From Eledone cirrhosa (Eukaryota), in contig OZ024740.1 in NCBI GenBank assembly GCA_964016885.1, forward strand, positions 5,022,001 to 5,086,000: 64,000 nucleotides of DNA, given 5' to 3'. Of this stretch, positions 215 through 53,170 are shown piece by piece (the stretch's first letter is position 1; each line of letters starts with the position of its first letter). The notes beneath the pieces are model-generated. The model had not been told where the DNA came from. It saw nothing but the letters and a program-made list of their open reading frames with translations, and ran no database searches. A program made the position numbers and the translations under genes.

Positions 215-407
215 ATAATTGTTTCTACTTTAGGCACAAGGCCAGCAATTACTCAGTACATTACTGGTACTTTATTTTATCGACCCCGTAAGGATGAAAG
301 GCAAAGTTAACCTCGGCGGGATTTGAACTCAGATCATAAAGCGACGTAACTCTATGCTAGAAAGCATGGGGTCCAACCCTCTACCAATACTGCCAATCCA
401 CCACCTA
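215..407 (-). mobile_element. tRNA-derived SINE (family A); its 5' head seeds the adjacent satellite
   Basis: Minus strand has A box TGGCAGTATTGG and B box GAGTTCAAATCC, body GCCTTTCATCCTTACGGGGTCGATAAAATAAAGTACCAG (resembles Meta/MESC-type central domain, from memory), A/T tail; about 10 homologous copies in window. Confidence 0.85.
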
Positions 408-3400: not shown

Positions 3401-5790
3401 AGACGCTCTACCAATACTGCCAATCCACCACCCTACCATGGTGTCAGACCCTCTACCAATACTGCCAATCCAACACCTAACATGGTGTCAGACCCTCTAC
3501 CAATACTACCAATCCACCACCTAACATGGTGTCAGACCCTCTACCAATACTGCCAATACACCACCCTAGCATGGTGTCAGACCCTCTACCTATACTACCA
3601 ATCCACCACCTAACATGGTGTCAGACCCTCTACCAATACTGCCAATCCACCACCTACCATGGCGTCCAACCCTCTACCTATACTACCAATCCACCACCTA
3701 ACATGGTGTCAGACCCTCTACCAATACTGCCAATCCACCACTCTAACATGGTGTCCAACCCTCTACCAATATTGCCTATCCACCACTTAACGTGGTGTCA
3801 GACCCTCTACCAATACTGACAATCCACCACCTAACATGGTGTCAGACCCTCTACCAATACTGCCATTCCACTACCCTAACATGGTGTCAGACCCTCTTAC
3901 AATACTGCCAATCCACCAGCTAACATGGTGTCAGACCCTCTACCAATACTGCCTTCCAGCACACTAACATGGTGTCAGACCCTCTACCAATACTGCCAAT
4001 CCAGCACACTAACATGGTGTCCAACCCTCTACCAATACTGCCAATCCAGCACACTAACATGGTGTCCAACCCTCTACCAATAATGCCAATCCACCAGCTA
4101 ACATGGTGTCAGACCCTCTACCAATACTGCCAATCCAGCACCCTACCATGGTGTCAGACCCTCTACCAATACTGCCAATCCAGCACACTAACATGTTGTC
4201 CAACCCTCTACCAATACTACCAATCCACCACCCTAACATGGTGTCAGACCCTCTACCAATACTACCAATCCACCACCCTAACATGGCATCAGACCCTCTA
4301 CCAATACTGCCAATCCACCACCTAACATGGCGTCAGACCCCTCTACCAATACTGCCAATCCAGCACACTAACATGGCATCAAACCCTCTACCAATACTGC
4401 CAATCCACCACCATAACATGGTGTCAGACACTCTACCAATACTGCCAATCCACCACCTAACATGGCGTCAGACCCTCTACCAATACTGCCAATCCACCAC
4501 CTAACATGGCGTCAGACCCTCTACCAATACTGCCAATCCAGCACACTAACATGGCATCAAACCCTCTACCAATACTGCCAATCCACCACCTAACATGGCG
4601 TCAGACCCTCTACCAATACTGCCAATCCACCACCTAACATGGCGTCAGACCCTCTACCAATACTGCCAATCCAGCACACTAACATGGCATCAAACCCTCT
4701 ACCAATACTGCCAATCCACCACCATAACATGGTGTCAGACACTCTACCAATACTGCCAATCCACCACCTAACATGGCGTCAGACCCTCTACCAATACTGC
4801 CAATCCACCACCCTAACATGGCATCCAACCCTCTATCGATACTGCCAATCCACCAGCTAACATGGCGTCCAACCCTCTACCGATACTGCCAATCCATCAC
4901 CTACCATGGTGTCCAACCCTCTATCTATACTATCAATCCACCACCTAACATGGTGTCAGACCCTCTACCAATACTGCCAATCCACCACCTACCATGGCGT
5001 CCAACCCTCTACCTATACTACCAATCCACCACCTAACATGGTGTCAGACCCTCTACCAATACTGCCAATCCACCACCCTAACATGGCGTCCAACCCTCTA
5101 CCGATACTGCCAATCCACCACTCTAACATGGTGTCCAACCCTCTACCAATACTGCCAATTCACCACCCTAACATGGCGTCCAACCCTCTACCAATACTGC
5201 CAATCCACCACCCTAACATGGTGTCAGACCCTCTACCAATACTGCCAATCCACCACCCTAACATGGCGTCCAACCCTCTACCGATACTGCCAATCCACCA
5301 CTCTAACATGGTGTCCAACCCTCTACCAATACTGCCAATTCACCACCCTAACATGGCGTCCAACCCTCTACCAATACTGCCAATCCACCACCCTAACATG
5401 GTGTCAGACCCTCTACCAATACTGCCAATCCACCACTCTAACATGGTGTCCAACCCTCTACCAATACTGCCAATCCACCACCCTAACATGGCGTCCAACC
5501 CTCTACCAATACTGCCAATCCACCACCCTAGCATGGTGTCAGACCCTCTACCAATACTGCCAATCCACCACACTAACATGGCGTTCAACCCTCTGCCGAT
5601 ACTGCCAATCCACCACCCTAACATGGCGTCCAACCCTCTACCGATACTGCCAATCCACCACCCTAACATGGCGTCCAACCCTCTACCGATACTGCCAATC
5701 CACCACCCTAACATGGCGTCCAACCCTCTACCGATACTGCCAATCCAGCACCCTAACATGGCGTTCAACCCTCTACCGATACTGCCAATC
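365..5790. repeat. 44/45-bp minisatellite (~120 units) derived from the SINE 5' head
   Basis: Unit CATGGTGTCAGACCCTCTACCAATACTGCCAATCCACCAC(C)CTAA; matches the reverse complement of SINE heads at 6320-6360, 9359-9398 and the + strand at 36769-36808. Confidence 0.95.
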
Positions 5791-6802: not shown

Positions 6803-9346
6803 ATTCGTGGACATGTTTATAAAATCAGAAAACAGCACAGCTCCCATGACATTCAGAATCATTTTTACATGCTCAGAGTTGCTGAAGCATGGAACAAACT
6901 ACCTACATCAGTTATTAGCTGTCGAGACACTGCATCCTTTAAAACCTCCATGGAACAAACTACCTACATCAGTTATTAGCTGTCGAGACACTGCAACCTT
7001 TAAAACCTCCATGGAACAAACTATCTGCATCAGTTATTAGCTGTCGAGACACTGCATCCTTTAAAACCTCCATGGAACAAACTACCTGCATCAGTTATTA
7101 GCTGTCGAGACACTGCAACCTTTAAAACCTCCATGGAACAAACTATCTGCATCAGTTATTAGCTGTCGAGACACTGCATCCTTTAAAACCTCCATGGAAC
7201 AAACTACCTACATCAGTTGTTAGCTGTCGAGACACTGCATCCTTTAAAACCTCCATGGAACAAACTACCTACATCAGTTATTAGCTGTCGAGATACTGCA
7301 TCCTTTAAAACCTCCATGGAACAAACTACCTACATCAGTTATTAGCTGTCGAGACACTGCAACCTTTAAAACCTCCATGGAACAAACTACCTACATCAGT
7401 TATTAGCTGTCGAGACACTGCAACCTTTAAAACCTCCATGGAACAAACTATCTGCATCAGTTATTAGCTGTCGAGACACTGCATCCTTTAAAACCTCCAT
7501 GGAACAAACTACCTACATCAGTTGTTAGCTGTTGAGACACTGCATCCTTTAAAACCTCCATGGAACAAACTACCTACATCAGTTATTAGTTGTCGAGACA
7601 CTGCAACCTTTAAAACCTCCATGGAACAAACTACCTGCATCAGTTATTAGCTGTCGAGACACTGCAACCTTTAAAACCTCCATGGAACAAACTACCTGCA
7701 TCAGTTGTTAGCTGTCGAGACACTGCAACCTTTAAAACCTCCATGGAACAAACTACCTGCATCAGTTGTTAGCTGTCGAGACACTGCAACCTTTAAAACC
7801 TCCATGGAACAAACTACCTGCATCAGTTATTAGCTGTCGAGACACTGCATCCTTAAAAACCTCCATGGAACAAACTACTTACATCAGTTATTAGCTGTCG
7901 AGACACTGCATCCTTTAAAACCTCCATGGAACAAACTACTTACATCAGTTATTAGCTGTCGAGACACTGCAACCTTTAAAACCTCCATGGAACAAACTAC
8001 TTACATCAGTTATTAGCTGTCGAGACACTGCAACCTTTAAAACCTCCATGGAACAAACTACTTACATCAGTTGTTAGCTGTCAAGACACTGCAACCTTTA
8101 AAACCTCCATGGAACAAACTACCTGCATCAGTTATTAGCTGTCGAGACACTGCATCCTTTAAAACCTCCATGGAACAAACTACCTACATCAGTTATTAGC
8201 TGTCGAGACACTGCAACCTTTAAAACCTCCATGGAACAAACTATCTGCATCAGTTATTAGCTGTCGAGACACTGCATCCTTTAAAACCTCCATGGAACAA
8301 ACTACCTGCATCAGTTATTAGCTGTCGAGACACTGCAACCTTTAAAACCTCCATGGAACAAACTATCTGCATCAGTTATTAGCTGTCGAGACACTGCATC
8401 CTTTAAAACCTCCATGGAACAAACTACCTACATCAGTTGTTAGCTGTTGAGACACTGCATCCTTTAAAACCTCCATGGAACAAACTACCTACATCAGTTA
8501 TTAGTTGTCGAGACACTGCAACCTTTAAAACCTCCATGGAACAAACTACTTACATCAGTTGTTAGCTGTCGAGACACTGCAACCTTTAAAACCTCCATGG
8601 AACAAACTACCTGCATCAGTTATTAGCTGTCGAGACACTGCATCCTTAAAAACCTCCATGGAACAAACTACTTACATCAGTTATTAGCTGTCGAGACACT
8701 GCATCCTTTAAAACCTCCATGGAACAAACTACTTACATCAGTTATTAGCTGTCGAGACACTGCAACCTTTAAAACCTCCATGGAACAAACTACTTACATC
8801 AGTTATTAGCTGTCGAGACACTGCAACTTTTAAAACCTCCATGGAACAAACTACTTACATCAGTTGTTAGCTGTCAAGACACTGCAACCTTTAAAACCTC
8901 CATGGAACAAACTACCTGCATCAGTTATTAGCTGTCGAGACACTGCATCCTTAAAAACCTCCATGGAACAAACTCCCTGCATCAGTTGTTAGCTGTCGAG
9001 ACACTGCATCCTTTAAAACCTCCATGGAACAAACTACCTGCATGAGTTGCTAGCTGTCGAGACACTGCATCCTTTAAAACCTCCATGGAACAAACTACCT
9101 GCATCAGTTGTTAGCTGTCGAGACACTGCATCCTTTAAAACCTCCATACTTCCCGAGATTCGCCAACACTACACCTAATATTTCCCCTCCATACACATAC
9201 ACACATGCATATCATGACTCATACACTATTCACTTCTCTGACACTTGTACATTATTCTACGTACTATACATGCACCTTTGATGAGTTGTAGTGCACCTGA
9301 GTACTGTACTCAATCATTTTCATTATTATTATTATTATTATTATTA
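6803..9346 (+). mobile_element. CR1-clade LINE 3' end interrupted by internal tandem amplification
   Basis: RGHVYKIRKQ...RVAEAWNKLPTSVISCRDTASFKTS is a typical CR1 ORF2 C-terminus; after the array the frame resumes (ILPEIRQHYT*), then 3' UTR and (ATT)n tail at ~9322-9346. Confidence 0.75.
6888..9147. repeat. 61-bp minisatellite, 37 units
   Basis: Unit CATGGAACAAACTACCTACATCAGTTATTAGCTGTCGAGACACTGCATCCTTTAAAACCTC; (9145-6888)/61=37. Confidence 0.95.
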
Positions 9347-10699: not shown

Positions 10700-12660
10700 C
10701 TATGGTGATATCTACCTTTGGTGATATCTATCTATAGTGATATCTATCCATAGTGATATCTATCTTTGGTGATATCTATCTATGGTGATTTTTATATTTG
10801 GTGATATCTATCGATGGTGATATCTATCTATAGTGATATCTATCTATGGTGATATCTATCTATGGTGATATCTATCTTTGATGATATCAATCTATGGTGA
10901 TATGAATCTATGGTGACATGAATCTATGGTGATATCAATCTATGGTGATATCAATCTTTGGTGATATCAATCTATGGTGATACCAATCTATGGTGATATC
11001 AATCTTTGGTGATACCAATCTATGGTGATATCAATCTTTGGTGATATCAATCTATGGTGGTATCAATCTTTGGTGACATCAATCTTTGGTGACATCAATC
11101 TTTGGTAATATCAATCTATGGTGATATCAATCTTTGGTGATTCAATCTATGGTGATATCTTTCTATGGTGATATCAATCTTTGGTGATATCTTTCTATGG
11201 TCACATCTATCTTTGGCGATATCAATCTATGGCGATATCAATCTTTGGTGATATCAATCTATGGTGATATCAATCTTTGGTGATATCAATCTATGGTGAT
11301 ATCAATCTATGGTGATATCAATCTTTGGTGATATCAATCTATGGTGATATATTTATATGGTGATATCAATGTTTGGTGATATCAGTCTATGGTGATATCA
11401 ATCTTTGGTGATATCAATCTTTGGTGATATCAATCTATGGTGATATCTTTCTAGTGTGATATCTATCTTTGATGATATGAATCTATGGTGATATCAATCT
11501 ATGGTGATATCAATCTATGGTGATATCAATCTATGGTGATACCAATCTACGGTGATATCAATCTTTGGTGATATCAATCTATGGTGGTATCAACCTTGGG
11601 GATATCAATCTTTGGTGACATCAATCTTTGGTAATATCAATCTATGGTGATATCTTTCTATGGTGATATCAATCTTTGGTGATTCAATCTATGATGATAT
11701 CTTTCTATGGTGATATCAATCTTTGGTGATATCAATCTATGGTGATATCTATCTATTGTGATATCTATTTTGATATGTTTCTATGGTGACATCAATCTAT
11801 GGTGATTTCAGTCTTTGGTGATATCAATCTTTGGTGATATCAATCTATGGTGATAGGAATCTATGGTGACATCTTTCTATGGTGATATCAATCTTTGGTG
11901 ATATCTATCTATAGTGATATCTTTCTATGGTGATATCAATCTTTGGTGATATCTTTCTATGGTCACATCTATCTTTGGCGATATCAATCTATGGTGATAT
12001 CAATCTTTGGTGATATCTATCTATGGTAATTTCTATATTTGGTGATAGCTATCTATAGTGATATCTATCTATGGTGATATCAATCTATGGTGATATCAAT
12101 CTTTGGTTATATCAATCTTTGGTGATATCAATCTTTGGTGATATCAATCTATGGTGATATCTTTCTATGGTGATATCTATCTTTGATGATATCAATCTAT
12201 GGTGATATGAATCTATGGTGATATCAATCTATGGTGATATCAATCTATGGTGATATCAATCTATGGTGATATCAATCTATGGTGATACCAATCCATGCTG
12301 ATATCAATCTTTGGTGATACCAATCTATGGTGATATCAGTCTTTGGTGATATCAATCTATGGTGATATCAATCTATGGTGATATCAATCTTTGGTGATAT
12401 CAATCTATGGTGATATATTTATATGGTGATATATTTCTATGGTGATATCAATCTTTGGTGATATCAATCTATGGTGATATATAACTATGGTGATATCTAT
12501 CTATGGTGATATATATCTATGGTGATATCTTTCTATGGTGATATCTATCTTTGGTGATATCTATCTATGGTGATATCTATCTATGGTGATATCTATCTAT
12601 GGTGATATATTTATATGGTGATATCAATCTATGGTGATATCTATCTATGGTGATATCTTT
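10700..12660. repeat. 16-bp minisatellite (~120 units)
   Basis: Unit TATGGTGATATCAATC with variants; contains the GATATC palindrome. Confidence 0.95.
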
Positions 12661-18240: not shown

Positions 18241-20870
18241 TTTATTAAAATAACAGATTAAAGTTTAAGCAAAGAATCGCTGCTTTCACCCTTAACGGGA
18301 TCTTCTGAAACTAACCCCTCTATTCGGCTTATTAACCCTACGAAGTCCGATTTAGGTAGACTTAGTTAAACGATTCTTGATAGAATTATACCTGAAATTA
18401 GAAGTTTGGCCCCTCTCGCACTGTGGAACAATTCTTTCGCGGTGATTGATTGGTTCAACGGCATATGTAACAAGGAACATTGCCGTTTTATCCAATTCGA
18501 CATCAACAATTACTACTCCTCCATCACTTTACCACTTCTCCTTAGAGCTATCAATTTCGCTAAAACACTCACAGTGGTTAAGGATTTTGAAGTTGATGTC
18601 ATCCTTAATGCCCGAAAGTCGGTGATTAATTTCGACGACTCTATTTGGATTAAAAAATCCAATAGTACCCCATTCGACGTGAGTATGGGCGCCAGTAACT
18701 CTGCGGAGGTTACTGATATTATTGGCCTTTTCATTCTTTTCTCTATCAAGGACGAATTCCCCAACGCGGGCGGTGGTTCGTACCGTGACGATGGTCTTTT
18801 GACCATGACTAAGTGCGGACCTCGTGCTTGCGACAGGTTCAGAAAAGAACTCACAGCCGTCTTTAAAGGCTTCAACCTCTCTATACAGGTTGAGGCCAAT
18901 CTCTCGGTCGTTAATTACCTCGACGTTACCCTCAATTTATTGAATGGGTTGTATTACCCGTATAGAAAGCCGAATGATACGCTTAATTACATAAGTAAGC
19001 ATTCCAACCATCCTGCCAGCATAACCAAGAACCTGGTAAGAAACGTTTCGTTGAGGCTTTCCCGTCTTTCCACCAACGAGCGCATTTTCAACGACCATTC
19101 CACTTATTACAATGAAGCTCTTGCTCGAAGTGGATTTGTCGATAAGGTAGCATATACAGAGTACGAAAATAGACCTAGAAGAAATAGATCCCGTCGCATT
19201 TGTTGGTTTAACCCACCATATAATATGGAGGTGGCCACACCATTAGCTAAGATCTTTCTTTCCCTTATTACGAAGCATTTTCCCCCTACACATAAATATA
19301 GTAACATTTTTAATAGAAATACTATTAAAATTTGTTACTCTACGACTCCTAACCTTGCACATAACATGACAGCTTCAAATTTAGCTAAACTACCTAGCCG
19401 TAGGAACACGTGCAACCCTGTAGTTAGTACTAACTGTAATTGTATGAATCGGGCTGATTGCCCCCTATCCGGGAAATGCCTCTCTAATAACATTGTCTAC
19501 AAATGTAAGGTTGTAACACCCACGTCCCGTAGGGCCTACATAGGGTTAACCGCCAATAGTTTCAAGCAGCGTCTTTACATGTATACCCATTCTTTTCGTT
19601 ACCCTCTAAGAAGGAATATGACGTCACTTTCAGCTTATATCTGGAGTCTAAAAGACAACCACACCCAATATAAGTTACACTGGGAGATCCTAGCTAGGAC
19701 TAGATCGTATAACGGAAATAAAAGACCATGTGACCTCTGCGCCGCTGAGGCCCTGGAAATACTCTACGCTACAGACCACATCTTAAACAAAAAATCTGAG
19801 GCAATTTCGGCTTGTAAACATAAATTGCACAAAACTTTCCTGTATTACAGCCCCACGTTATACCCTAACGGATAGCACGATCTATACGTGGATATTTTAC
19901 GTCTTGATGTGGGAGCTAAGTATATGTTTTGTTTATTCCTTTACTTATTTGCATAGGTAAGTATATATTACCCGTATGTTTTGTGAAGGTATGTATACCT
20001 TCTCGTACGTATGTTTGACTGTTATAGCGTATAATTTTTACATATTCTGGTATTTAGGGTTTGGCTATGTGTATACGGGAGTTTTGCGTCCGCGTGAGTG
20101 TGCAGGTTCGTACGTATGGTGGGTGTGTGTATATCTGTACTTCTTGTTTTAGTTGACTTACGTCACCGAACATTCGTGTATTTATATGTAGGTATGCGTG
20201 TGCGCTTGTTATATACGTATTTATTTACTTATATACGTTTATATAATTATTTATTTATTTGTACACAAGCATACACACACACACATATTTATATGTGCGT
20301 GGTTTTGTATACCCATGGTAAGGCTTTGCGTATGCTTGTGTATGTACGTATCTGTTTGCGTGTATGTATTTATTTGTTTCTATTACTTCTGTATTGTATT
20401 TATTTACTTTGTTCTTAACTCTGTAGCGGAGATTCATTTGGTCTCCTAGTTAGAATTTTAGTCTACGATTTCTGCTATACCATTTACGTGGTTTTGTCTT
20501 TGCGTGCTATTGTTCTCCACGCTCCACATATGACTTATTATCTTCGTGTTTTCGTTCATTGCCAGAGAACGTCTCTATGCACCACCTAAGAGAACATTAG
20601 TCTACGACCTCTTTTATACCATAAACGTGGTTTTGTATTTGCGCGTAATTGTTTTTCACCGCTCCTATTAATGACGTATTATTCGTTTTTTCCCGTTCTT
20701 TGCCAGCGAACGTTACCACGAACCAAAGTATCGTCTTCCTGTCTTCCCCCGGTTGCAACGTTTTTTGAAATATCCAGTTCTGCGTTTACAGATTGACTTT
20801 GTTAGTTTCAGAAGATCCCGTTAAGGGTGAAAGCAGCGATTCTTTGCTTAAACTTTAATCTGTTATTTTA

Positions 20871-21116: not shown

Positions 21117-21158
21117 AAGTATATACTTTCGAACGTTCAACTATCTGGCAGATGGGTA

Positions 21159-21203
21159 AACGGTGCTGATGATAGCTAACAAGCTTGAAACTAGTACATC
21201 GTT
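21159..21203 (+). ncRNA. Type I hammerhead ribozyme
   Basis: AACGGTG-CTGATGA-TAGCT(AACA)AGCTT-GAAA-CTAG-TA-CATCGTT; 7-bp stem I, palindromic stem III, GUA site. Confidence 0.85.
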
Positions 21204-21372
21204 CCTGTGTCAGTGTTGAACAAAAAGGTGACGTGGTTGCCTTAACACCGTATGGCATAAATTCAGGCTGTTCTGTTTGTTGACAAACAAACGAACAAAG
21301 CTGCGTTATAATAAACGTCGGCTAAACTGATGCGTGCATATATGTATGTGTACCTGTGTGCATATATGTATA

Positions 21373-21452
<80 letters not shown>

Positions 21453-21696
21453 CATATATGCATGCTACTGTACGTCTGTATACATATATGTATGTACGTA
21501 TACATACATACTTACATTTAAGTAAGTGCCATACTAAGAGTGAGAAATGAAATTTCGTTTTCATTTTTTTCAACTTATCGTTTTCGGTATGCCTGACCGA
21601 TTTAACTCACTCAATATGCAAATTAGGCTGCTCAGCCGTTAATTTTCATAAGGAAAGTATATACTTTCGAACGTTCAACTATCTGGCAGATGGGTA

Positions 21697-21741
21697 AACG
21701 GTGCTGATGATAGCTAACAAGCTTGAAACTAGTACATCGTT
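21697..21741 (+). ncRNA. Type I hammerhead ribozyme (identical second copy)
   Basis: Same sequence 538 nt downstream. Confidence 0.85.
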
Positions 21742-21910
21742 CCTGTGTCAGTGTTGAACAAAAAGGTGACGTGGTTGCCTTAACACCGTATGGCATAAAT
21801 TCAGGCTGTTCTGTTTATTGACAAACAAACGAACAAAGCTGCGTTATAATAAACGTCGGCTAAACTGATGCGTGCATATATGTATGTGTACCTGTGTGCA
21901 TATATGTATA

Positions 21911-21956
<46 letters not shown>

Positions 21957-22074
21957 TGCATGCTACTGTACGTCTGTATACATATATGTATGTACGTATA
22001 CATACATACTTACATTTAAGTAAGTGCCATACTAAGAGTGAGAAATGAAATTTCGTTTTCATTTTTTTTCAACT

Positions 22075-22162
<88 letters not shown>

Positions 22163-27332: not shown

Positions 27333-27419
27333 TAATTGCCTTATGTTGTTTATTACATAACTATATATATATAGCGATATGTGCTTTTACGATTCTCTAG
27401 AGAGGCCGGAAGATAGGTA

Positions 27420-27464
27420 AATATTGCTGATGAGTTGTAACAACAACGAAACTAGTTCAATATT
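27420..27464 (+). ncRNA. Type I hammerhead ribozyme
   Basis: AATATTG-CTGATGA-GTTGT(AACA)ACAAC-GAAA-CTAG-TT-CAATATT; GUU site. Confidence 0.85.
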
Positions 27465-27686
27465 CCTTGTCTGGCTTTCTGGAGAATAGAGGAAAGGTGT
27501 TTCCTCAAAAACCAGTATGACTCTAAAAACCGGTTTGTCTGTGTGTTTACATACAGAATAGCTGGCCACTCACAGTAAAGTGATCAGTGAAAAAAAAACT
27601 TGGTACATCTACATATGTATACGTGTGTGTATTCATATACATACTAGTATTTCAGTATACATATATGGATGTACATCTTTGACTTA

Positions 27687-27717
<31 letters not shown>

Positions 27718-27848
27718 AATGTAGGAGGTGAGTTTTATTGTAGTACAATAAAGCAATGCAGATATCAGATAAGAAGCACTCTACAGTTTGTAGGACTGGA
27801 GTATACATAATATATTAGAACAAAAGATGGTTAAAAGAGTTCCATGTA

Positions 27849-27915
27849 TTTTATTATGCGCATTTCAAAAACAAATATCATCATGCAATAATATTTGTGT
27901 TTTCATCAGATAAAA
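27849..27915 (-). ncRNA. Hammerhead ribozyme in the inverted pLTR
   Basis: Reverse complement of 28036-28102. Confidence 0.7.
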
Positions 27916-28035
27916 CAGGAAGACATGATATGAAGATTAAAAAACACTTGTGGATAGTTCAGTTTTAAATCAACATATGAGAAGTAGTTTTAGATTGATG
28001 TGTGATATTGGGAAAAATATTTTATTATTTTCCTG

Positions 28036-28102
28036 TTTTATCTGATGAAAACACAAATATTATTGCATGATGATATTTGTTTTTGAAATGCGCATAATAA
28101 AA
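28036..28102 (+). ncRNA. Type I hammerhead ribozyme in the 5' pLTR
   Basis: TTTTAT-CTGATGA-long stem II (ACAAATATTAT..ATGATATTTGT)-GAAA-TGCGCA-TA-ATAAAA; AUA site. Confidence 0.75.
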
Positions 28103-28314
28103 TACATGTAACTCTTTTAACCATCTTTTGTTCTTATATATTATGTATACTCCAGTCCTACAAACTGTAGAGTGCTTCTTATCCGATATCTGCATTGCTT
28201 TATTGTACTACAATAAAACTCACTTCCTACATTAACTTGCTCCTTAACGGTTGAGCGCTTACTCTCATATTGGATACCTTTTGATGGTCTTTTACTTCTT
28301 TCTTCTTCTACAAC

Positions 28315-30673
28315 ATGGGTTATTACAACATAACCAATTCAACTAAAGACATTCCTATACCTGGTAAATCTGAATTCACCAAACTTCTAATTGAAAAAAC
28401 TGATTCCTTCGTAAGAAGACTTAGATGGATAGCCTATTTCTATGACCAGCGCCTAAAAGGGAACTTCTATACCAAAGAACATAACTTCCTCGATCATCTA
28501 TTTAATTCTAGAAGAAATCCTCCTTCCAACAAAAATCTAGTGCAATTCGAGGAAGAGTTAACTAAAATTATAAAAAATCTTAAATTCAAGAGATACCCTT
28601 ACAAAGGACAAGAGCACCTTGTAAATCTCAAGAACACAATTTCCAACCTAAATTCCTCAAAAAATGTTTTAGTCCACTCTGACAAAACCAATAACTTATA
28701 TGGTATTTCCAAGGATAATTATAACAACCTTATCCTAAAGGAACTTAGGAAAAAATATCGTAAAACCAACCATGAAAATTTAGAATACATAAACTTTGAA
28801 GCCTCTGAGATTATGTCAAAACTTGGCATTGAAAAAAAGACAGAACCATTCCTCCCAAGAACTCCGAAGATAAATCTCAAGGATCACAAAAACAATTTTC
28901 GCACTGAACTACCTGTTAGATTAATCGCCCCCTCTAAATCAGATCTGGGGGTTGTTAGTAAAGCCATCTTGGATAGAATTATCCCACAGGTTCGTTCTAA
29001 TTGCTCTTCTTTGAATCTAAATTTATGGTTTGGTACTTCTGAAGTGATTAGCTGGTTCAACAAATTGAATAATAAAAACAAACTAAATTTTGTTCAATTT
29101 GATATTGCCAGCTACTATTCTTCCATTTCGCCTTCACTTCTCAATAATGCTCTATCTTTCGCACTTAAATATTCTGACATCACCACAGATGAACTTCACA
29201 TCATTCTCACCATCCTAGAGTTCAACAACGAATATTGGACCAGAGCCGATACCTCTAACAACTTCGACATCACAATGGGAGCATCCGATTCATCCCAATT
29301 GACTGATTTAATTGGTATCTTTATTTTGAACTCTTTGAGTCGGAAAATTCCTCAACTTCGCGGTGGAATTTATCGTGACGATGGACTCTTTACTATCTTA
29401 AATTGCAACATAGTTAACCTTAATATTATTAAGAACAATATACGTAATCTCTTTAACCAACATAACATAAAAATTGAATTTGATAACAGCATCAAACTAG
29501 CTAATTTCTTGGATGTATCTCTTAATCTTGACACTGGCCTATATTACCCTTACCATAAAAACAATGAGAACCTAAATTATGTTAACTTTAAATCTAGCCA
29601 TCCTACTAATATCAAGAATGCTATAGTTAGTAATATTGGAAAAAGAATATCTAACCTATCTTCTAATAAAAACATCTTTGATGCTAACGCCAATTACTAT
29701 AATAACGCGCTTTCTAAAGCCGGCTATCCTGATAAAATCAAATATAGTAAAGAAACAAATTCTAGAAGAAATTACAGTCGAATAATTAATCTTGATCATT
29801 CCAATAACTTTAATAAAAGACCTAGATACAAAAACATAATCTGGTATAATGCTCCTTTCTCCATCTCTATTAATAACAATATTCCTAAATTATTCTTTAA
29901 TGCCTTAAATAATTGCTTCCCTCCCTCACATATCTATAGTAAAATATTTAACAAACACACTATAAAATTTTCCTATTCTACATCCTCCAACATTTCCAAC
30001 ATTATCTCTAAACACAACAATAAAATACTAAATACTAAATCTCTTCCTTCCAACACTGAATATCATAATAATAGTACTCCCGACGTCATTGTAAACCTTA
30101 GGCTAATTTCTACAAACCCAAATACAACGTCAAACACAACTTCGCTAGATGTTCTTAATCCCATTCTAAATCAAGAAACTATTATTCCTATTGCAAATAA
30201 CTTCTCCAATCCAATTCCTTCTATAGATAACACTAGGTCACTCATTAATAATCTCTCTAATTGCAATTGCAATTGCCCTATTAAAAATAAATGTCCTCTC
30301 AACAACCATTGTCTTGATAAAAACTTAATTTACGAATGTAAAGTTATAACTGACACCGATTCCTTCACCTATTTTGGCTCCACTTCCACCTCTTTTAAAG
30401 CTCGTCTTTATAACCATCATTCGTCTTTTAAATACAAACTTAAAAGAACCAACACGGCTCTCTCAGAACTCATATGGTCCTTGAAAGACAAAAAATATTA
30501 AATATAGCATCTTTTGGAAGAAGGTTTCTTCTGCGTCTCCATACTTGAACAGTTCTCTATCCAAAATTTGCAATCTCTGTCTAAATGAAAAAATTGCCAT
30601 TATTTCTAATCTAGATTCTATAATAAATAGACGCACTGACTTGTTTTCTATCTGCTTGCATAAATTCCATTAA
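28315..30673 (+). CDS. PLE polyprotein RT + GIY-YIG (728-aa ORF; one +1 frameshift at an A-run near 30490 restores the C-terminus)
   Basis: KDIPIP..RRLRWIAYF N-terminus, SDKTNN, VQFDIASYYSSI, MGA, YRDDGL, FLDV, CNC..CPL..C, LIY..YFGST; shifted frame continues NIKYSIFWKK...CNLCLNEK...INRRTDLFSICLHKFH*. Confidence 0.9.
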
Positions 30674-40480: not shown

Positions 40481-40524
40481 GGTTAGTGGTTAATTCAATT
40501 GGGAACTGTGATAATTGATGAAGG

Positions 40525-41956
40525 TGTTGGTCTATATAATGGTGTTACATGGCAGTGTTGGTCTATATAGTGTTACATGGCAGTGTTGGTCTATATGGTG
40601 TTACATGGCAGTGTTGGTCTATACGATGGTGTTACATGGCAATGTTGGTCTATATAATGGTGTTACATGGCAGTGTTGGTCTATATAGTGTTACATGGCA
40701 GTGTTGGTCTATATGGTGTTACGTGGCAGTGTTGGTCTATATGGTATTACATGACAGTGTTGGTCTATATGGTGTTACATGGCAGTGTTGGTCTATATGG
40801 TGTTACATGACAGTGTTAGTCTATATGGTGTTACATGACAGTGTTGGTCTATATAATGGTGTTACATGGCAGTGTTGGTCTATATAGTGTTACATGGCAG
40901 TGTTGGTCTATATGATGTTACATGACAGTGTTAGTCTATATGGTGTTACATGGCAGTGTCGGTCTATATGGTGTTACACGACAGTGTTGGTCTATATGGT
41001 GTTACATGGCAGTGTTGGTCTATACGATGGTATTACATTGCAGTGTTGGTCTATATGGTGTTACATGACGGTGTTGATCTATATGGTGTTACATGGCAGT
41101 GTTGGTCTATATGGTGTTACATGGCAGTGTTGGTCTATATGGTGTTACATGGCAGTGTTGGTCTATATGGTGTTACATGGCAGTGTTGGTCTATATGGTG
41201 TTACATGACAGTGTTGGTCTCTATGGTGTTACATGACAGTGTTGGTCTCTATGGTGTTACATGACAGTGTTGGTCTATATGGTGTTACATGGCAGTGTTG
41301 GTCTATTTAGTGTTACATGACAGTGTTGGTCTATATGGTGTTACATGGCAGTGTTGGTCTATACGATGGTGTTACATGGCAGTGTTGGTCTATATGGTGT
41401 TACATGGTAGTGTTGGTCTATATGGTGTTACATGACAGTGTTGGTCTATATGGTGTTACATGGCAGTGTTGGTCTATATGGTGTTACATGGTAGTGTTGG
41501 TCTATATGGTGTTACATGACAGTGTTGGTCTATATGGTGTTACATGGCAGTGTTGGTCTATATGGTGTTACATGACAGTGTTGGTCTATATGGTGTTACA
41601 TGGCAGTGTTGGTCTATATGCTGTTACATGACAGTGTTGGTCTATATGGTGTTACAGGACAGTGTTGGTCTATATGGTGTTACAAGGCAGTGTTGGTCTG
41701 TATGGTGTTACAAGGCAGTGTTGGTCTATACGATGGTGTTACATGACAGTGTTGATCTATATGGTGTTACATGACAATGTTGGTCTATATGGTGTTACAT
41801 GACAGTGTTGGTCTATACGATGGTGTTACATGACAGTGTTGGTCTAAATAGTGTTACATGGCAGTGTTGGTCTATATGGTGTTACATGGCAGTGTTGGTC
41901 TATATGGTGTTACATGGCAGTGTTGGTCTATATGGTGTTACATGACAGTGTTGGTG
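40525..41956. repeat. 28-bp minisatellite (~50 units)
   Basis: Unit GTGTTGGTCTATATGGTGTTACATG(G/A)CA with occasional slightly longer variants. Confidence 0.95.
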
Positions 41957-43210
41957 GGTACTTCCTTCTGCACCAGCTATCACTCTTCTTCCAATTATGT
42001 CTTAACAATGGTGTTACTACGGAGCAGTGGAAAACTGCCAGTGTCATTCCTCTGTTCAAAAAGGGTGACCGCACATCACCTGTGAACTACCGTCCAGTCA
42101 GTCTTACTAGTTGCATTGCCAAACTGATGGAATCCTGCGTCAGAGAAACACTTTGGAACTTCTGGAACTCTCACAGTCTTATCCGGCTCTCGCAATTTGG
42201 ATTTATCCCCAACTCCAGCTGCCGTGATCAACTTATCGAGTTCCTTGAAGACACCACCCGGATCACTGATGACGGCTCATGGGTGGATGTTGTTTACTTT
42301 GACTTTGCTAAAGCTTTTAATTCTGTGCCACACAAGAGACTTATGACAAAACTCTCTGCAATGGGTGTGAAGGATGATCTTTTTAACTGGTTGAAGTCCT
42401 TCATTCTCAGTCAAAGAGAGGTAGTCACGGTTCTAGGACAGCATTCCTCACCATATGAGATGTCATCTGGTGTACCACAGGGATCTGTTCTTGGTCCCCT
42501 TTTGTTTGTGGCATATATTAATGACATAGATACCAACTTAAAGAATGCCACAGTACTGAAATACGCAGATGACATCAAGCTGTACCTTGAGATAAAAAGG
42601 ACAGATCCTGAATACTATAGATCTTTCCTGTAATCAGACCTGGACACAATGCAACAATGGATCACAGACTGGCAACTCAAGCTAGCTGTGGACAAGTGCA
42701 CCACCATGCATTTTGGGAGTAAAAACCCAGCGTCCACGTATTCCCTCCACGACACTAATATCAAGAAGTCTTGTGAACGTGACCAAGGCATTACTATCAG
42801 CAGCGATTTGTGTTGGATGAAGCACGTCTCTAAAATTGTCAAGAGGGCCGAGGGTGTCTTAGCATCGCTCAGCAAGACCTTTGTCAGCCGCTCTCCAGCT
42901 ATCTATTTAAAGCAGTATGTAGCTATGGTGTGGCCACACTTAGAATTTGCATCACCAGTCTGGAACCACTATCTTTCTCAGGATATTGACCTCCTGGAAA
43001 CTGTTCAGACGTGCAGCCAAGCGAATACCCTCCATCAGGCATCTACCATACTCTGAACGCCTTGCTTCCCTGGGCATGGATACATTGAAGCTTCGACGCC
43101 TGGCAACTGACTTGGTAAACACCCACAACATTATAAGCCATCTTGCCAACAACAACCTGCGCACCTTTTTCATTTCCATGTGTCTAACACACATGGGTAT
43201 GCCTACAAAA
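41957..43210 (+). pseudogene. CR1-clade LINE ORF2 RT fragment
   Basis: PLFKKGD..NYRPVSLTS, QFGF, DFAKAFNSVPH, GVPQGSVLGPLLF, YADDIKL, LEFASPVWN; stop and frameshifts. Confidence 0.9.
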
Positions 43211-46807: not shown

Positions 46808-49800
46808 ATCATCATCATCATCATCATCATCATTTTACGTCCGCTTTTCCCTGCTTGCAAGGGTGGGATGGGTCCTATTCAGCTCAGCATTTCTCCACTT
46901 GTCACGGTCCTTCATCTCCTCCGTGAGTTTCAGTGATCTGAGGTCTGCTCTCACCACCTCCGGCCATGTTTTTCATGGTCTACCTCTACTGCGTCTTACT
47001 TCTACTGGGATTTCTTGGCACTTCTTTACCCATCGGTCATCCTCCATGCGCATCACATGTCCATACCATCGCACTCTCCCCTCTCGCACACAATAATTTA
47101 TCCCTCTCAGACACAGTTTCTCTCTCAACACATCCATGCTCAGTCGTTCACGCACATTGACATTGCACATCCAACGGAGCATGTTTGCCTCATTAATCTC
47201 CAGCCGTCGCATATCCTCTGCAGTTGCTGCCCAAGTCTCACTACCATGCAGCATCACGCATCTCACACAGGCATCATATAACTCTCCTTTTGTACGCAGG
47301 GCGAAACCCTTCTTTGTTAACAGAGGAAGCAGCTCCCTAAAATTCTCCAAACCCGTCCTTATTCTAGATACTATGACCACGGAAGACCCCCCCCCCCCCT
47401 TGCCCATGCTAACTGATCACCTAGGTACCGGAAGTTATCCACCACTTCTATAGAACCCACCTGCATTGGAAAAATGTGTATATCACTGCAATTACTACTG
47501 CCAACTTTCCCTGTACATCTACTGCATAGGTAGTTTTCCCTACCTGTTAGTTTGCCTGTATGCCACTATATCTCTTGTGTACCCAAGAGCTACATTGCGT
47601 ACATTTTATGGAATTTATGCCAGTTCCTTTTCTGCATATCGAACATGGCCATTTCCCTGACGGAATCAGGGTTTTGTCCTCTCTTCTATTCATCAACACT
47701 TTAGTCTTAGCTAGGTTCACTCTCAGGCCTTTTGATTCCAACTGCTGTTTCCATAGCCATAATTTATTCTCTAGCTCCTCTACTGATTCTGCTATAAGAA
47801 CCAGATCATCAGCCAAGAGAAGTTCCCATGGGCAGCCAGTCATAAACTCCTCTGGTATGGCTTGGAGGACTATAATGAACAAGAGCGGGCTGAGGACCGA
47901 ACCCTGATGTACACCTACTTGTATCTGGAATTCTTCACTAAACTCCATTCCTATTCTCACTTTACTGACAGCACCCCTGTACATAGCTTGCACTGTCCTC
48001 ACAAGCCATTCCTCTACCCCTAGTTTCGTTAGAGACCACCAGATGACAGATCGGGGTACCCTATCAAATGCCTTCTCTAGGTCAACAAAAGCTAAGTTTA
48101 GTGGCTTATTTTTCTCTAAGAACGTCTCTTGTAGCTGCCTCACTAAGAAGAGTGCATCTGTTGTACTTTTCTGAGGCACAAACCAAACTGCATCTCATCT
48201 AATTTGCCGCTTTCTCTAATCAGTTGGGCTAATATTCTCTTTGCCACTTTCATAACCTGATCCATCAGCTTTATGCCCATATAGTTGCTCCTCTCCAGAG
48301 CATCCCCTTTATCTTTGTAGCAATTTATGAGAATACTGCTGCACCAGTCTTTTGGTATGATACCACGATATATAGCTTGATTAATGATGCATGCAACCAG
48401 TTTAGTGCCTACATCCCCTGATGCCTTCAACATCTCAGCAACTATCCCCGACGGTCCAGCAGCCTTACCATTCTTCATTTCCTTAATTGCCTCTTGTACC
48501 CTATATTCGTCAATCTCAATAGCTGGTCCCTCTGTCAGGTCTACTGGGGTAATTTCTCTCTGTCCCATTCGTTCTCCACATTCATCAGTCTCTCATAATG
48601 ACATTTCCAGGCCTCCTTTTTTTTATCATTCTTGACACTAAGTACACCGGCATCATCCCGGACACATTTATCTCCAACAACATCCTGATTTGCATTGACA
48701 CACTGCCTTGCAATGTGGAACACCGCACACCTCTGATCTTCCTGTCACAGAACATTGGCAAACCTCCTATTCTCAGCCTCCCTGCATGCTAAGTAGACCT
48801 GACGTCTAGCTTCTCTCTTAGCGGCAGTGTATCCTTCTCTACTCCCACACTTTTTCCAAGCCTTCCATGCCAGTCTTTTGTCTCTAATGGCCTTATCTAG
48901 CGTGCTGTTCCACCACCAGGTCACACTCTGCCTGGTGGAAGCTCTGCCCCAACCACACGTTTCTTCAGTAGCCTGCAGTAAGTTGTCACACAAGAAATTC
49001 CAGTTATCCTCTATGTCATACAACTCTAAATCGTCTTCTTTTTCGTCATACCCATCTTGAAGGGCTTTGTTCAATTTATATTTTAATGAAAGGTCTTTTA
49101 GCTTCCAGACCTTTCTTTTCCACACCTTCCTGTATGTCTCATTCCATCTCTTGCTTACTGAGATGTCACTAACGACTAACCTATGCTGTGGGGTACATTC
49201 TTCCCTGGGGTATGCCTTGGTATTTGACACCATCTGTCTGTCTCGCTGTCTAACTAGCAGGAAGTCAATGTGGCTTATGTGCTCGCCTGATTTGTAGGTT
49301 ATTAGGTGGTTGGTAGGCTTCTAGAAGTTAGTGTTGCAAATGGTTAGTGCATTTGCATCACAAAATTCAAGAAGCCTCACTCCTTCTTCATTTCTTGAAC
49401 CGTAACCGTGCCCACCACGTACCCCAATGTATCCATCCTGGAGCTGTCCAACATGTCCATTGAAGTCCCCCACTAACATAACGATGTCTCTGTCCCCTGT
49501 CATTGAGGCTGTTTGCTCGTAAAAGCCGTCCTTCTCTTCTTTACCTAGGCCTGCCTGGGAGCATAGGCAGAGATGATTGTCAGTAGTCTCTTGTCTACAA
49601 CTAATCTAAGCTTAATTATTCTATTACTAACTCTAACTACCTCTATTCTCTTATTCTTCCACCTCTCAGCCAGTAATATGCCCACCCCACCTAATCCATC
49701 ATCATTACCCACCCAGAAAACTTATAACTACAATGTTTGCCTGCGATTAGTCTTGCAGAGGCACCTCTCCATCTCACCTCTTGCACGCAGCACACATCCA

Positions 49801-51494: not shown

Positions 51495-53170
51495 AGGGAA
51501 ATGAAAAATGGTAAGGCTGCCGGTCCATTGGGAATAGTTGCTGTAGTTGCTGAGATGCCGAAGGCATCAGGGGACGTAGGCACTAAACTGGTTGCACGCA
51601 TCATCAATCAGACTATATATGGTGGTGCCATACCCAAAGACTGGTGCAGCAGTATTCTCATAAATTGCTACAAAGGTAAAGGGGATGCTTTGGAGAGGAG
51701 CAATTATAGGGGTATGAAACTGATAGATCAGGTTATGAAAGTGGCAGAAAGGATATTAGTACAACTAATTAGAGAAAGGGTCAAACTAGATGAGATGCAG
51801 TTTGGTTTTGTGCCTAGGAAGAGTACAACAGATGCCCTCTTTTAGGTGAGACAATTGCAAGAGAGGTTCTTAGAGAAGAATAAGCCACTATACTTAGCCT
51901 TTGTTGACCTAGAGAAGGCCTTTGATAGGGTACCCTGATCTGTCATCTGGTGGTCCCTAAGAAAGCTAGGTGTTGAGGAATGGCTTGTGAGGACAGTGCA
52001 AACTTTGTACAGAGGTACTCTCAGTAAAGTCAGGGTAGGAATGGAGTTTAGTGAGGAATTCCAGATACAAGTAGGAGTACATCAGGGTTCGGTCCTCAGC
52101 TCGCTCTTGTTCATTATAGTCCTCCAAGCCATAACAGAGGAGTTTAAGACTGGCTGTCCATGGGAACTTCTCTATGCTGACGATCTGGTTCTTATAGCAG
52201 AATCAGTAGAGGAGCTGGAGAATAAATTCTGGCTATGGAAACAGCAGTTGGAAGCAAGAGGACTGAGAGTAAATCTAGCTAAGACAAAAGTGTTGATGAG
52301 TAGAAAAGAGGACAAAACCCTGATTCCGTCAGGGAAATGGCCATGTTCGATATGCAGAAAAGGAACTGGCATAAATTCTATAAAATGCACACAATGCAGA
52401 TCCTGGGTTCACAAGAGATGTAGCGGGATAGCAGGCAAACTAACAGGTAGGGAGAAATATGTATGCAGTAGATGTACAGGGAAATTAGACAGTAGAAGTC
52501 GCATTGATAGACACAATTTTCAAATGCAGGAGGACGCTATAGAAGTGGTGGATAGCTTCCGGTACCTAGGAGATCAGATTAGCATGGGAGGAGGGTGTTC
52601 CGAGGCCATAGTATCTAGAATAAGGACGGGTTGGAAGAAGTTTAGGGAGCTGCTTCCTCTGTTGACGAAGAAGGGTTTCTCCCTGTGTACGAAAGACCGG
52701 TTGTATGATGCCTGTGTGAGGAGCGCGATGCTGCATGGTAGTGAGAGATGGGCAGCAACTGCAGAGGATATGTGACGGCTGGAGAGAAATGAGGCAAGCA
52801 TGCTCCGTTGGATGTGCAGTGTAAATGTGCGTCAATGACCCAGCATAAATGTGTTGAGAGAGAAACTGTGTCTGAGAGGGATAGAATGTAGTGTACGGGA
52901 GAGGAGACTGCGGTGGTATGGACATCTGATGCGCATGGAGGCTGACCGATGGGTGAAGAAGTGCCAGGAAATGCCAGTTGAAGGAACACGTGGTAGAGGT
53001 AGACCACGAAAAACATGGGCGGAGGTGGTGAGAACAGACCTCAGATCATTGAAGCTCACAGTGGAGATGATGAGGGACCGCGACAAGTGGAGAGATGCTG
53101 TGCTGAATAAGACCTGTCCCACCCTTGCAAGCAGGGAAAAGCGGACGTAAAATGATGATGATGATGATGA
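51495..53170 (+). mobile_element. RTE LINE, 5'-truncated, same family as 46808-50400
   Basis: MKNGKAAGP, NYRGMKL, YADDLVL, PHD, GRPRKTW; several stops; tail GCGGACGTAAAATGATGATG. Confidence 0.9.

What the first reader, a model, noticed from the sequence alone, without database searches (positions are those of the whole stretch)
27372..27690. Sister HHR element shows compensatory changes in both stems
Seen: GATAGGTAAATATTG-CTGATGA-GTTGT(AACA)ACAAC-GAAA-CTAG-TT-CAATATTCCTTGTC versus GATGGGTAAACGGTG-CTGATGA-TAGCT(AACA)AGCTT-GAAA-CTAG-TA-CATCGTTCCTGTGTC at 21151. Stem I and II sequences differ but still pair, while the core, AACA loop, CTAG and GGTAAA/TTCC flanks are kept. Inference: selection on ribozyme structure, possibly with a loop II to stem I bulge tertiary contact, and a diversified family of small HHR elements.
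Basis: partly seen in the sequence, partly recalled or inferred. Interest (0 to 1): 0.75.

Follow-up and report, generated by a model that had tools for sequence, protein, structure and literature searches.

The report
Covarying hammerhead in Penelope-type retrozyme
This is one truncated copy of a very abundant non-coding repeat in an animal genome whose predicted self-cutting RNA fold (a hammerhead ribozyme) has kept its base pairs while its letters changed, and which likely spreads by borrowing the enzymes of Penelope-type jumping genes, a known kind of element (retrozyme).

Summary
Window 27369-27691 is 323 bases of a 470-base tandem unit with a type I hammerhead (predicted cut 27457|27458); the 21151 element is a homologous family along the whole unit. 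Six stem pairs change on both sides and still pair, but the pair at the base of stem II goes G-C to U·U, the third AACA base and the 5' bulge vary, and loop II is better read as a UAANNA hexaloop. Changes fixed between subfamilies stay paired (9 of 9); changes private to single copies mostly do not (21 of 67 paired). The core pattern occurs 23,400 times in the genome (control 0). Insertions are head-to-head arrays in (TA)n with one short and one long fixed end (28 of 31), the footprint of Penelope-like elements; Hydra-type elements lie in the window. Units carry an octamer-plus-TATA motif like the host's U6 genes. Verdict: a new family of known non-LTR retrozymes; covariation is what a working hammerhead should show. 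Cleavage, expression and circular RNA are untested. This scan reported the same kind of element, probably this family too, on other DNA of this genome.

The parts
27369..27691 (+). Single-armed, 5'-truncated copy (unit positions 1-323) of a 470-base tandem unit (family A); begins at the TATA-like box, lacks the octamer block, ends at the family's short fixed end and runs into (TA)14
27394..27485 (+). Extended stem I enclosing the hammerhead; -33.8 kcal/mol, z -5.2 on the + strand, z -1.4 on the - strand
27415..27426 (+). Stem I 5' strand: 3-bp distal helix, 3-nt bulge, 6-bp proximal helix
27427..27450 (+). Catalytic core C3-A9 (27427-27433), 4-bp stem II with UAACAA hexaloop (27438-27443), G12-A14 (27448-27450)
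27451..27457 (+). Minimal stem III, a 6-base palindrome (2 bp around a 2-nt loop, too tight for a monomer hairpin), then H17 = U; predicted cut between 27457 and 27458
   Evidence: sequence
27458..27467 (+). Stem I 3' strand with invariant U1.7 at 27464, the predicted tertiary partner of the last A of loop II (27443)
   Evidence: invariant in 18 of 18 rows; contact inferred from PMC11875169 passages
21117..22077 (+). Sister family B: about 1.9 tandem units (538-base period, microsatellite inside), hammerhead cores at 21166 and 21704, U·U at the base of stem II, GUA triplet, ends at the family's long fixed end next to (TA)n
21616..21664 (+). Octamer (21616) and TATA (21658) upstream of the second B hammerhead, resembling the host's U6 upstream region
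18370..20870 (+). 5'-truncated Hydra-type Penelope-like element (RT plus C-terminal GIY-YIG, CxCX5C linker), right arm of a two-armed insertion; candidate class of helper, not shown to be the helper
28285..30501 (+). Second Hydra-type Penelope-like ORF (738 aa; RW, DKT and CxCX5C motifs read by eye; no Pfam hit)

Best explanation
The 27k element is a truncated copy of a non-coding 470-base tandem repeat with a covarying type I hammerhead fold, a non-LTR retrozyme, which is predicted to self-cleave and is likely copied into (TA)n sites by Penelope-like reverse transcriptase and endonuclease supplied in trans. Shown: unit size, copy number, homology of the sister families, covariation, two-armed insertions with fixed ends, the U6-like motif. 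Inferred cycle: an internal snRNA-type promoter drives read-through transcripts of tandem arrays; hammerheads cut them, likely as dimers because stem III is a 6-base palindrome, helped by a U1.7 to loop II A contact; units are likely ligated to circles; a Hydra-type enzyme nicks (TA)n and primes cDNA at two fixed AU-rich sites about 72 bases apart, one for each DNA end, and copies across the ribozyme site, often for many rounds. Only source RNAs that keep the fold are amplified, so changes fixed in a subfamily are compensatory while inserted copies such as this one decay neutrally.
For: Covariation: (RNAalifold recovers stems I and II unprompted). Fixed against private changes: 9 of 9 state changes among six recurrent stem haplotypes are paired, 21 of 67 private changes are. 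Copy number: 23,400 pattern matches, reversed control 0; 3,443 more for distant clades. Tandem 468-473-base units with no ORF over 60 codons. 28 of 31 complete two-armed A/C insertions have one end at 321-325 and the other at 391-396, none the same end twice; family B does likewise at about 400 and 459; the window's Hydra element also has two 3' ends; PMC8557442 describes this inverted-plus-tail structure and (TA)n targeting. Inner 5' ends are spread evenly, 1 of 76 within 5 bases of the cut site. Array-private variants run through all covering units of both arms in 7 of 23 distinct arrays, and none marks one whole arm only. Octamer and TATA are kept in clades A, B, C, D and stand at -76 to -78 and -30 of three U6 types, but not before U2.
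Against: No RNA evidence and no cleavage assay; only 1 of 9 predicted Xenopus retrozymes cleaved in the 2026 preprint. GUU, a 2-bp stem III and U·U, C·A or A·A at the base of stem II are suboptimal. No sequence homology was found between units A or B and the 3' ends of the two window PLE families, so the helper is not identified. A read-through transcript of a uniform parent array explains the shared variants as well as a circle does. Loci were fetched by hammerhead-containing queries, which under-samples arms made from cut linear units; a direct pattern test found 3 junctions at the cut site against 0 at a control site, all with microhomology. Octamer-to-TATA spacing is 41-42 against 46-48 in U6, and the units hold T4-T7 runs that would stop Pol III. 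The six A-versus-B double changes come from one comparison of two lineages; R-scape was not available.
Confidence: 0.82

Rival explanations
1. Same element and helper, but the template is an uncut linear multimer, not a circle: the weakened hammerhead cuts slowly, so read-through transcripts survive long enough to be copied; the ribozyme only trims some transcripts.
For: Suboptimal triplet, stem III and stem II base; very uniform arrays make shared variants uninformative; alternating variants in one array suggest a two-unit period.
Against: Arms reach 14 or more units, and one run of 31 same-strand cores at about 466-base spacing appears; array-wide variants are A>G in 6 of 12 distinct cases, three of them in one array, as if one edited molecule was copied repeatedly (small numbers, and one site recurs in four arrays); coral, mussel and axolotl retrozymes form circles (PMC7229834).
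Confidence: 0.35
2. The fold is conserved as a structural signal for the Penelope protein or for RNA stability; catalysis has been lost or is marginal.
For: Three of five clades lack a canonical 10.1-11.1 pair (13 of 18 rows unpaired); the window's Hydra element carries a hammerhead-like motif with a U4A core change in 26 of 26 copies seen; most Xenopus tests failed.
Against: All core residues stay invariant in five clades while the stems turn over, and H17 varies only among U, A and C in recurrent types; U10.1·U11.1 is known in active natural hammerheads (PMC3088659; axolotl Amex2).
Confidence: 0.12
3. A satellite amplified at the DNA level (unequal crossover), with a relic hammerhead whose covariation dates from an ancestral Penelope terminal repeat.
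For: Some long one-strand arrays with mixed variants exist (about 80 listed copies at one locus); the 2026 preprint proposes local amplification.
Against: Hundreds of dispersed, near-identical loci with fixed outer ends, (TA)n targets, and 8-11-base target duplications where the flank is unique; compensatory changes also separate young subfamilies that are 85-95% identical.
Confidence: 0.05

Closest known systems
Metazoan non-LTR retrozymes (Cervera and de la Pena 2020, PMC7229834; parts 2-4 of 6 read)
   Same: Non-coding tandem units of a few hundred bases, one type I hammerhead per unit, thousands of copies, low GC, several families per genome; axolotl HHR_Amex2 has the same U·U at the base of helix II and cleaves better as a dimer.
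   Different: Units of 470-540 bases are at the upper end; head-to-head two-armed insertions with two fixed ends and a U6-like motif are not described in the parts read; expression, cleavage and circles are shown there and untested here.
Retrozymes as non-autonomous PLE derivatives (Li, Clavereau, Pollet 2026, bioRxiv 10.64898/2026.07.22.740005; parts 1-3 of 5 read)
   Same: Proposes Penelope-like elements as origin and helper.
   Different: It rests on pLTR homology in Xenopus and co-occurrence, and favours local amplification of arrays; here no pLTR homology was found but the insertion footprint is Penelope-like.
Hydra-clade Penelope-like elements (Craig et al. 2021, PMC8557442; passages and two supplement rows seen)
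   Same: (TA)n targeting, 5' truncation, inverted partner copy, a tail on one end only, hammerhead near the 3' end.
   Different: The element encodes no protein; its tail is about 72 bases (58 in family B) against 30-40 stated there.
Rfam Hammerhead_HH9 (RF02275) and Schistosoma-type full-length type I hammerheads
   Same: Type I topology, 6-bp proximal stem I, bulge, 4-bp stem II with hexaloop, U at 1.7.
   Different: 37.7 bits against a cut-off of 52; stem III cut down to a 6-base palindrome as in PLE and newt dimer-type ribozymes (PMC6765202 passage); sits in a mobile repeat, not a conserved intron (HH9 context recalled).
Newt satellite 2 and schistosome satellite (via PMC2220036 passage)
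   Same: Hammerhead repeat with an internal snRNA-type or Pol III promoter.
   Different: Promoter here is inferred from likeness to host U6 upstream motifs only.

Membership tests
Type I hammerhead ribozyme | Core C3 U4 G5 A6 N7 G8 A9, G12 A13 A14, A15.1-U16.1, H17 | tested here: met
Type I hammerhead ribozyme | Three stems, open at stem I, supported by covariation | tested here: met
   stems I and II covary; stem III is invariant in its two pairs, so it gives no covariation
Type I hammerhead ribozyme | Canonical R10.1-Y11.1 pair | tested here: met
   G-C in the 27k element; not met in the sister (U·U) nor in clades D, E (A·A); U·U is a known natural variant
Type I hammerhead ribozyme | Loop II to stem I tertiary contact | tested here: inconclusive
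   U1.7 and the last loop A are invariant in 18 of 18 rows, and the base opposite U1.7 varies among A, U, G; no covariation between the partners, no structure
Type I hammerhead ribozyme | Site-specific self-cleavage | not testable with these tools
   needs in vitro assay
Rfam HH9 (RF02275) | Score over the gathering threshold of 52 bits | tested here: not met
   37.7 and 18.5 bits
Non-LTR retrozyme | Tandem non-coding units, each with a type I hammerhead | tested here: met
   met by the family, while the window copy itself is a partial single unit
Non-LTR retrozyme | Dispersed mobile copies without LTR structure; target duplications longer than 4 bases when present | tested here: met
   8-11-base duplications at three unique-flank sites; PBS and PPT were not searched for
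Non-LTR retrozyme | Expressed as linear and circular unit-length RNA | not testable with these tools
   no RNA holder listed; only DNA-type contigs could be laid
Non-autonomous PLE derivative | PLE insertion footprint (inverted truncated partner, one-sided tail, microsatellite target) | tested here: met
   28 of 31
Non-autonomous PLE derivative | Sequence homology to the terminal repeat of an autonomous PLE | tested here: inconclusive
   none to the 3' ends of the two window families and one related copy; other PLE families of the genome were not surveyed

The most novel reading that the evidence does not exclude
These arrays are genomic fossils of rolling-circle retrotransposition: one ribozyme-made, sometimes A-to-I edited RNA circle, transcribed from a captured U6-type promoter, is copied round and round by two Hydra-type reverse transcriptases from both ends of one DNA break; and the lineage has tuned a deliberately weak, dimer-dependent hammerhead (palindromic stem III; G-C, U·U, C·A or A·A at the base of stem II) so that circles survive, which makes it a natural mutational series for hammerhead structure-function work.
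Probability: 0.4. Interest if true: 0.65.

Novelty: new member of a known kind. Interest (0 to 1): 0.4.

Why it matters
The covariation itself is expected of any working hammerhead family. The value is in the set: very young, very abundant subfamilies give ready substrates to test two steps that the papers read propose but do not show, namely that Penelope-like proteins mobilise animal retrozymes and that tandem arrays arise by reverse transcription round a circle. The natural series at the base of stem II (G-C, U·U, C·A, A·A) with a fixed U1.7 and loop A is a simple test of how far a tertiary contact or dimer formation rescues a weak core. At about 470-540 bases a unit, the family is on the order of 10 Mb of this genome (my estimate).

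Tried and rejected
RNA evidence: no RNA holder listed; the four runs laid were contigs, one deep and three very shallow, and gave no independent variation in the stems; a 'goes back 470' joint there is what tandem DNA gives and is no sign of a circle. Metagenome scan with a family pattern: 0 matches. Pfam found nothing in the two PLE ORFs; they were classed by motifs read by eye against PMC8557442. Locus L062 first looked like a retrozyme arm fused head-to-head to a PLE (co-mobilisation); the PLE frame continues on both sides and a 9-base duplication flanks the array, so it is a nested insertion and was dropped as evidence. A first count of private changes (45 of 99 paired) was discarded because a subfamily was mis-assigned and 30 loci came from a pattern that forced a stem II change; one search leaves those 30 loci out. 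My first genome pattern had the wrong spacer and found only 9 length variants. A 5'-end hotspot at the cut site was sought and not found. Similarity of the upstream motif to U2 promoters: none. No covariance model was built, as the genome cannot be searched with one; R-scape is not available. Lunse et al. (PMC5785218) is not held and is known here only through a review passage. The supplement of PMC7229834 could not be read and bioRxiv supplements are closed; either may list this family or its organism. The organism was not determined.

Full report
Observation. The two quoted sequences are present. The window holds 4 matches to a bare core pattern against 0.67 expected; three are these elements, at 27427, 21166 and 21704. 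Rfam gives HH9 for both, below its cut-off (37.7 and 18.5 bits against 52). The 27k region folds well on the + strand only (z -5.2 against -1.4); the 21k hammerhead alone is not exceptional (z -1.4). Between the two, 15 of 30 stem columns differ and 1 of 23 unpaired columns; 14 of 15 pairs hold and 6 are double changes; 9 of 200,000 random placements did as well. The broken pair is the one at the base of stem II, G-C at 27k and U·U at 21k. U10.1·U11.1 is known from natural hammerheads (PMC3088659 passage) and from the axolotl retrozyme Amex2 (PMC7229834).

What the element is. The 27k sequence has 787 candidate places in the 3.0-Gb genome, and the 40 scored are 100% identical; the 21k sequence has 489. 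The loci are arrays of a 468-473-base unit (107 units counted over overlapping loci) with no frame over 60 codons; the window holds its first 323 bases. The 21k element is a near-dimer with a 538-base period, and the two units align end to end. A pattern for core plus palindromic stem III matches 23,400 places, its reversed control 0 (the first 100 rows were listed). These fall into clades A, C (85-95% identical to A) and several B subfamilies. A second pattern gives 3,443 more of two distant clades, D and E; D aligns with A and B over the hammerhead and upstream block.

Covariation. On 12 real copies of A, C and B, 96.9% of cells pair and 7 of 16 pairs change on both sides. With D and E, 18 copies, 93.3% pair, 11 of 15 pairs change on both sides, score 0.616 against 0.218 for shuffles (0 of 500 as high) and at most 0.163 for slid partners; two weaker measures were not exceptional (further pair types 220 of 500). 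Rows are related and were chosen by me to represent subfamilies, so cells are not events. RNAalifold on 14 longer copies recovers stems I and II and two downstream helices without being told. One stem I position takes five pair types. The better test is fixed against private change: among six stem haplotypes that recur four times or more, all 9 state changes stay paired; among 67 changes private to single copies 21 stay paired, 2 as Watson-Crick, 1 double (30 loci from a biased pattern left out; the 10.1 pair, the U-A closing position and the outermost pair were not counted). So the fold is selected in the elements that multiply and decays in inserted copies.

Anatomy. Stem II is best read as 4 positions plus a UAANNA hexaloop, as in the HH9 model: its first U and last A never vary, while the AACA third base does. 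U1.7 never varies and the base opposite it is A, U or G. A Hoogsteen contact of U1.7 with the last loop II A is described for Schistosoma and sTRSV hammerheads (PMC11875169 passages); I infer the same here. Stem III is two pairs around two bases, a 6-base palindrome in A, B, C and a different palindrome in D; two such stretches pair at -4.8 kcal/mol. Palindromic short stems III are reported to work as dimers (PMC6765202 passage). Triplets are GUU, GUA and GUC; GUA is slower than GUC (PMC1636495 passages); that GUU is slower still is recalled.

How it spreads. Of 31 two-armed A/C insertions with both outer ends readable, 28 have one end at unit position 321-325 and the other at 391-396; three have one end elsewhere; none has the same fixed end twice; most flanks are (TA)n (one insertion with an unreadable end and arrays running off the fetched stretch were left out). 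Six independent young B insertions show ends near 400 and 459. At three unique flanks there are 8-11-base duplications. An inverted truncated partner, a tail at one end only and (TA)n targeting are described for Penelope-like elements, and the RW, DKT and CxCX5C motifs of the two window ORFs fit the Hydra clade (PMC8557442 passages). The Hydra family at 18370-20870 has two 3' ends of its own. No homology links the units to these PLE ends, so the helper is inferred by footprint only. I saw the two-armed form before the look-up of earlier notes.

Template. The fixed ends lie about 235 and 305 bases past the cut site, and arms run across the cut site. Of 76 inner ends from 38 junctions, 1 is within 5 bases of the cut (about 1.8 expected if even). 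Because loci were found by their hammerheads, I also asked directly: a pattern for foreign letters just before the cut site gave 4 hits, 3 junctions with microhomology and one deletion, against 0 at a control site. Cut linear units are at most a minor template. In 25 loci (23 distinct arrays, 231 units) 12 distinct array-wide variants were found; in 7 arrays they run through both arms, and no variant marks one whole arm only; 6 of 12 are A>G on the RNA strand against 1 T>C, while single-unit changes show no such bias (4 A>G, 4 T>C of 30). This fits one RNA molecule per insertion, circle or uniform multimer; it does not separate them.

Promoter. Clades A, C, B and D keep an octamer and a TATA-like box 41-42 bases apart in A and B; three U6 gene types carry the octamer or a one-base variant at -76 to -78 and TATA at -30, one sharing 12 identical bases with family B; two U2 loci lack it. 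Newt and schistosome hammerhead satellites have internal snRNA-type or Pol III promoters (PMC2220036 passage). T runs in the unit argue against simple Pol III read-through. The 27k copy starts at the TATA and lacks the octamer, so it is likely a dead end.

Literature. Six-term and shorter full-text searches found no paper on retrozymes with head-to-head arrays and none on cephalopod retrozymes; unread supplements may bear on this. The class, the PLE link and the circle model are in print. Earlier notes of this scan describe 467/468-, 422-, 310- and 518-601-base families in this genome with the same reading; they are unchecked and not independent support.

Verdict. Real, correctly spotted, and a new family of a known kind. 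Interest 0.4: the covariation is expected, the insertion footprint and the natural series of weak stems make good test material, and the scan has already noted the system.

Noticed in passing
window 27717-28234 (cores at 27909 - and 28042 +); also 31376 +, 55688 -, 55823 +: The palindromic element right after the 27k copy is a two-armed repeat with an oversized hammerhead: 36-base stem II, 8-base palindromic stem III, AUA triplet.
   Followed up: partly
window 20809 +, 18307 -, 44557 -: The Hydra-type element carries a hammerhead-like motif with A in place of U4 (CAGAAGA core) and U·U at the base of stem II, kept in 26 of 26 copies seen apart from one further core change; MFE folding does not favour it. 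Either a natural core variant or a dead ribozyme fixed in a young family.
   Followed up: partly
window 27369 and 21117: Both single-armed copies in the window begin at the TATA-like box directly after (TA)n, perhaps by microhomology with the target.
   Followed up: no
L063 (G000:C1:14044300-14051460): A 15-unit arm in which variants alternate between units, pointing to a two-unit template or later local duplication.
   Followed up: no
G000:C3:12272007-12316088: A one-strand array of about 80 listed B-type units with a stem II change and mixed variants, more like a satellite amplified in place.
   Followed up: no
L062:5790-6660: A B-type array inserted antisense inside a Hydra-type ORF with a 9-base duplication; part of it recurs in the inverted arm of that PLE, so the PLE seems to have moved with the passenger.
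   Followed up: partly
L215-L226: This genome's U6 genes have an octamer only about 77 bases upstream of the start, next to the expected PSE position, and a tandem cluster of about 34 listed U6 copies on C19.
   Followed up: partly
window 41848-42630, 47550-48194, 51939-52772: LINE-type RT fragments, two followed by a PHD finger.
   Followed up: no
window 365-5790, 6888-9147, 10700-12657, 40524-41955: Long minisatellites with 45-, 61-, 16- and 28-base units.
   Followed up: no
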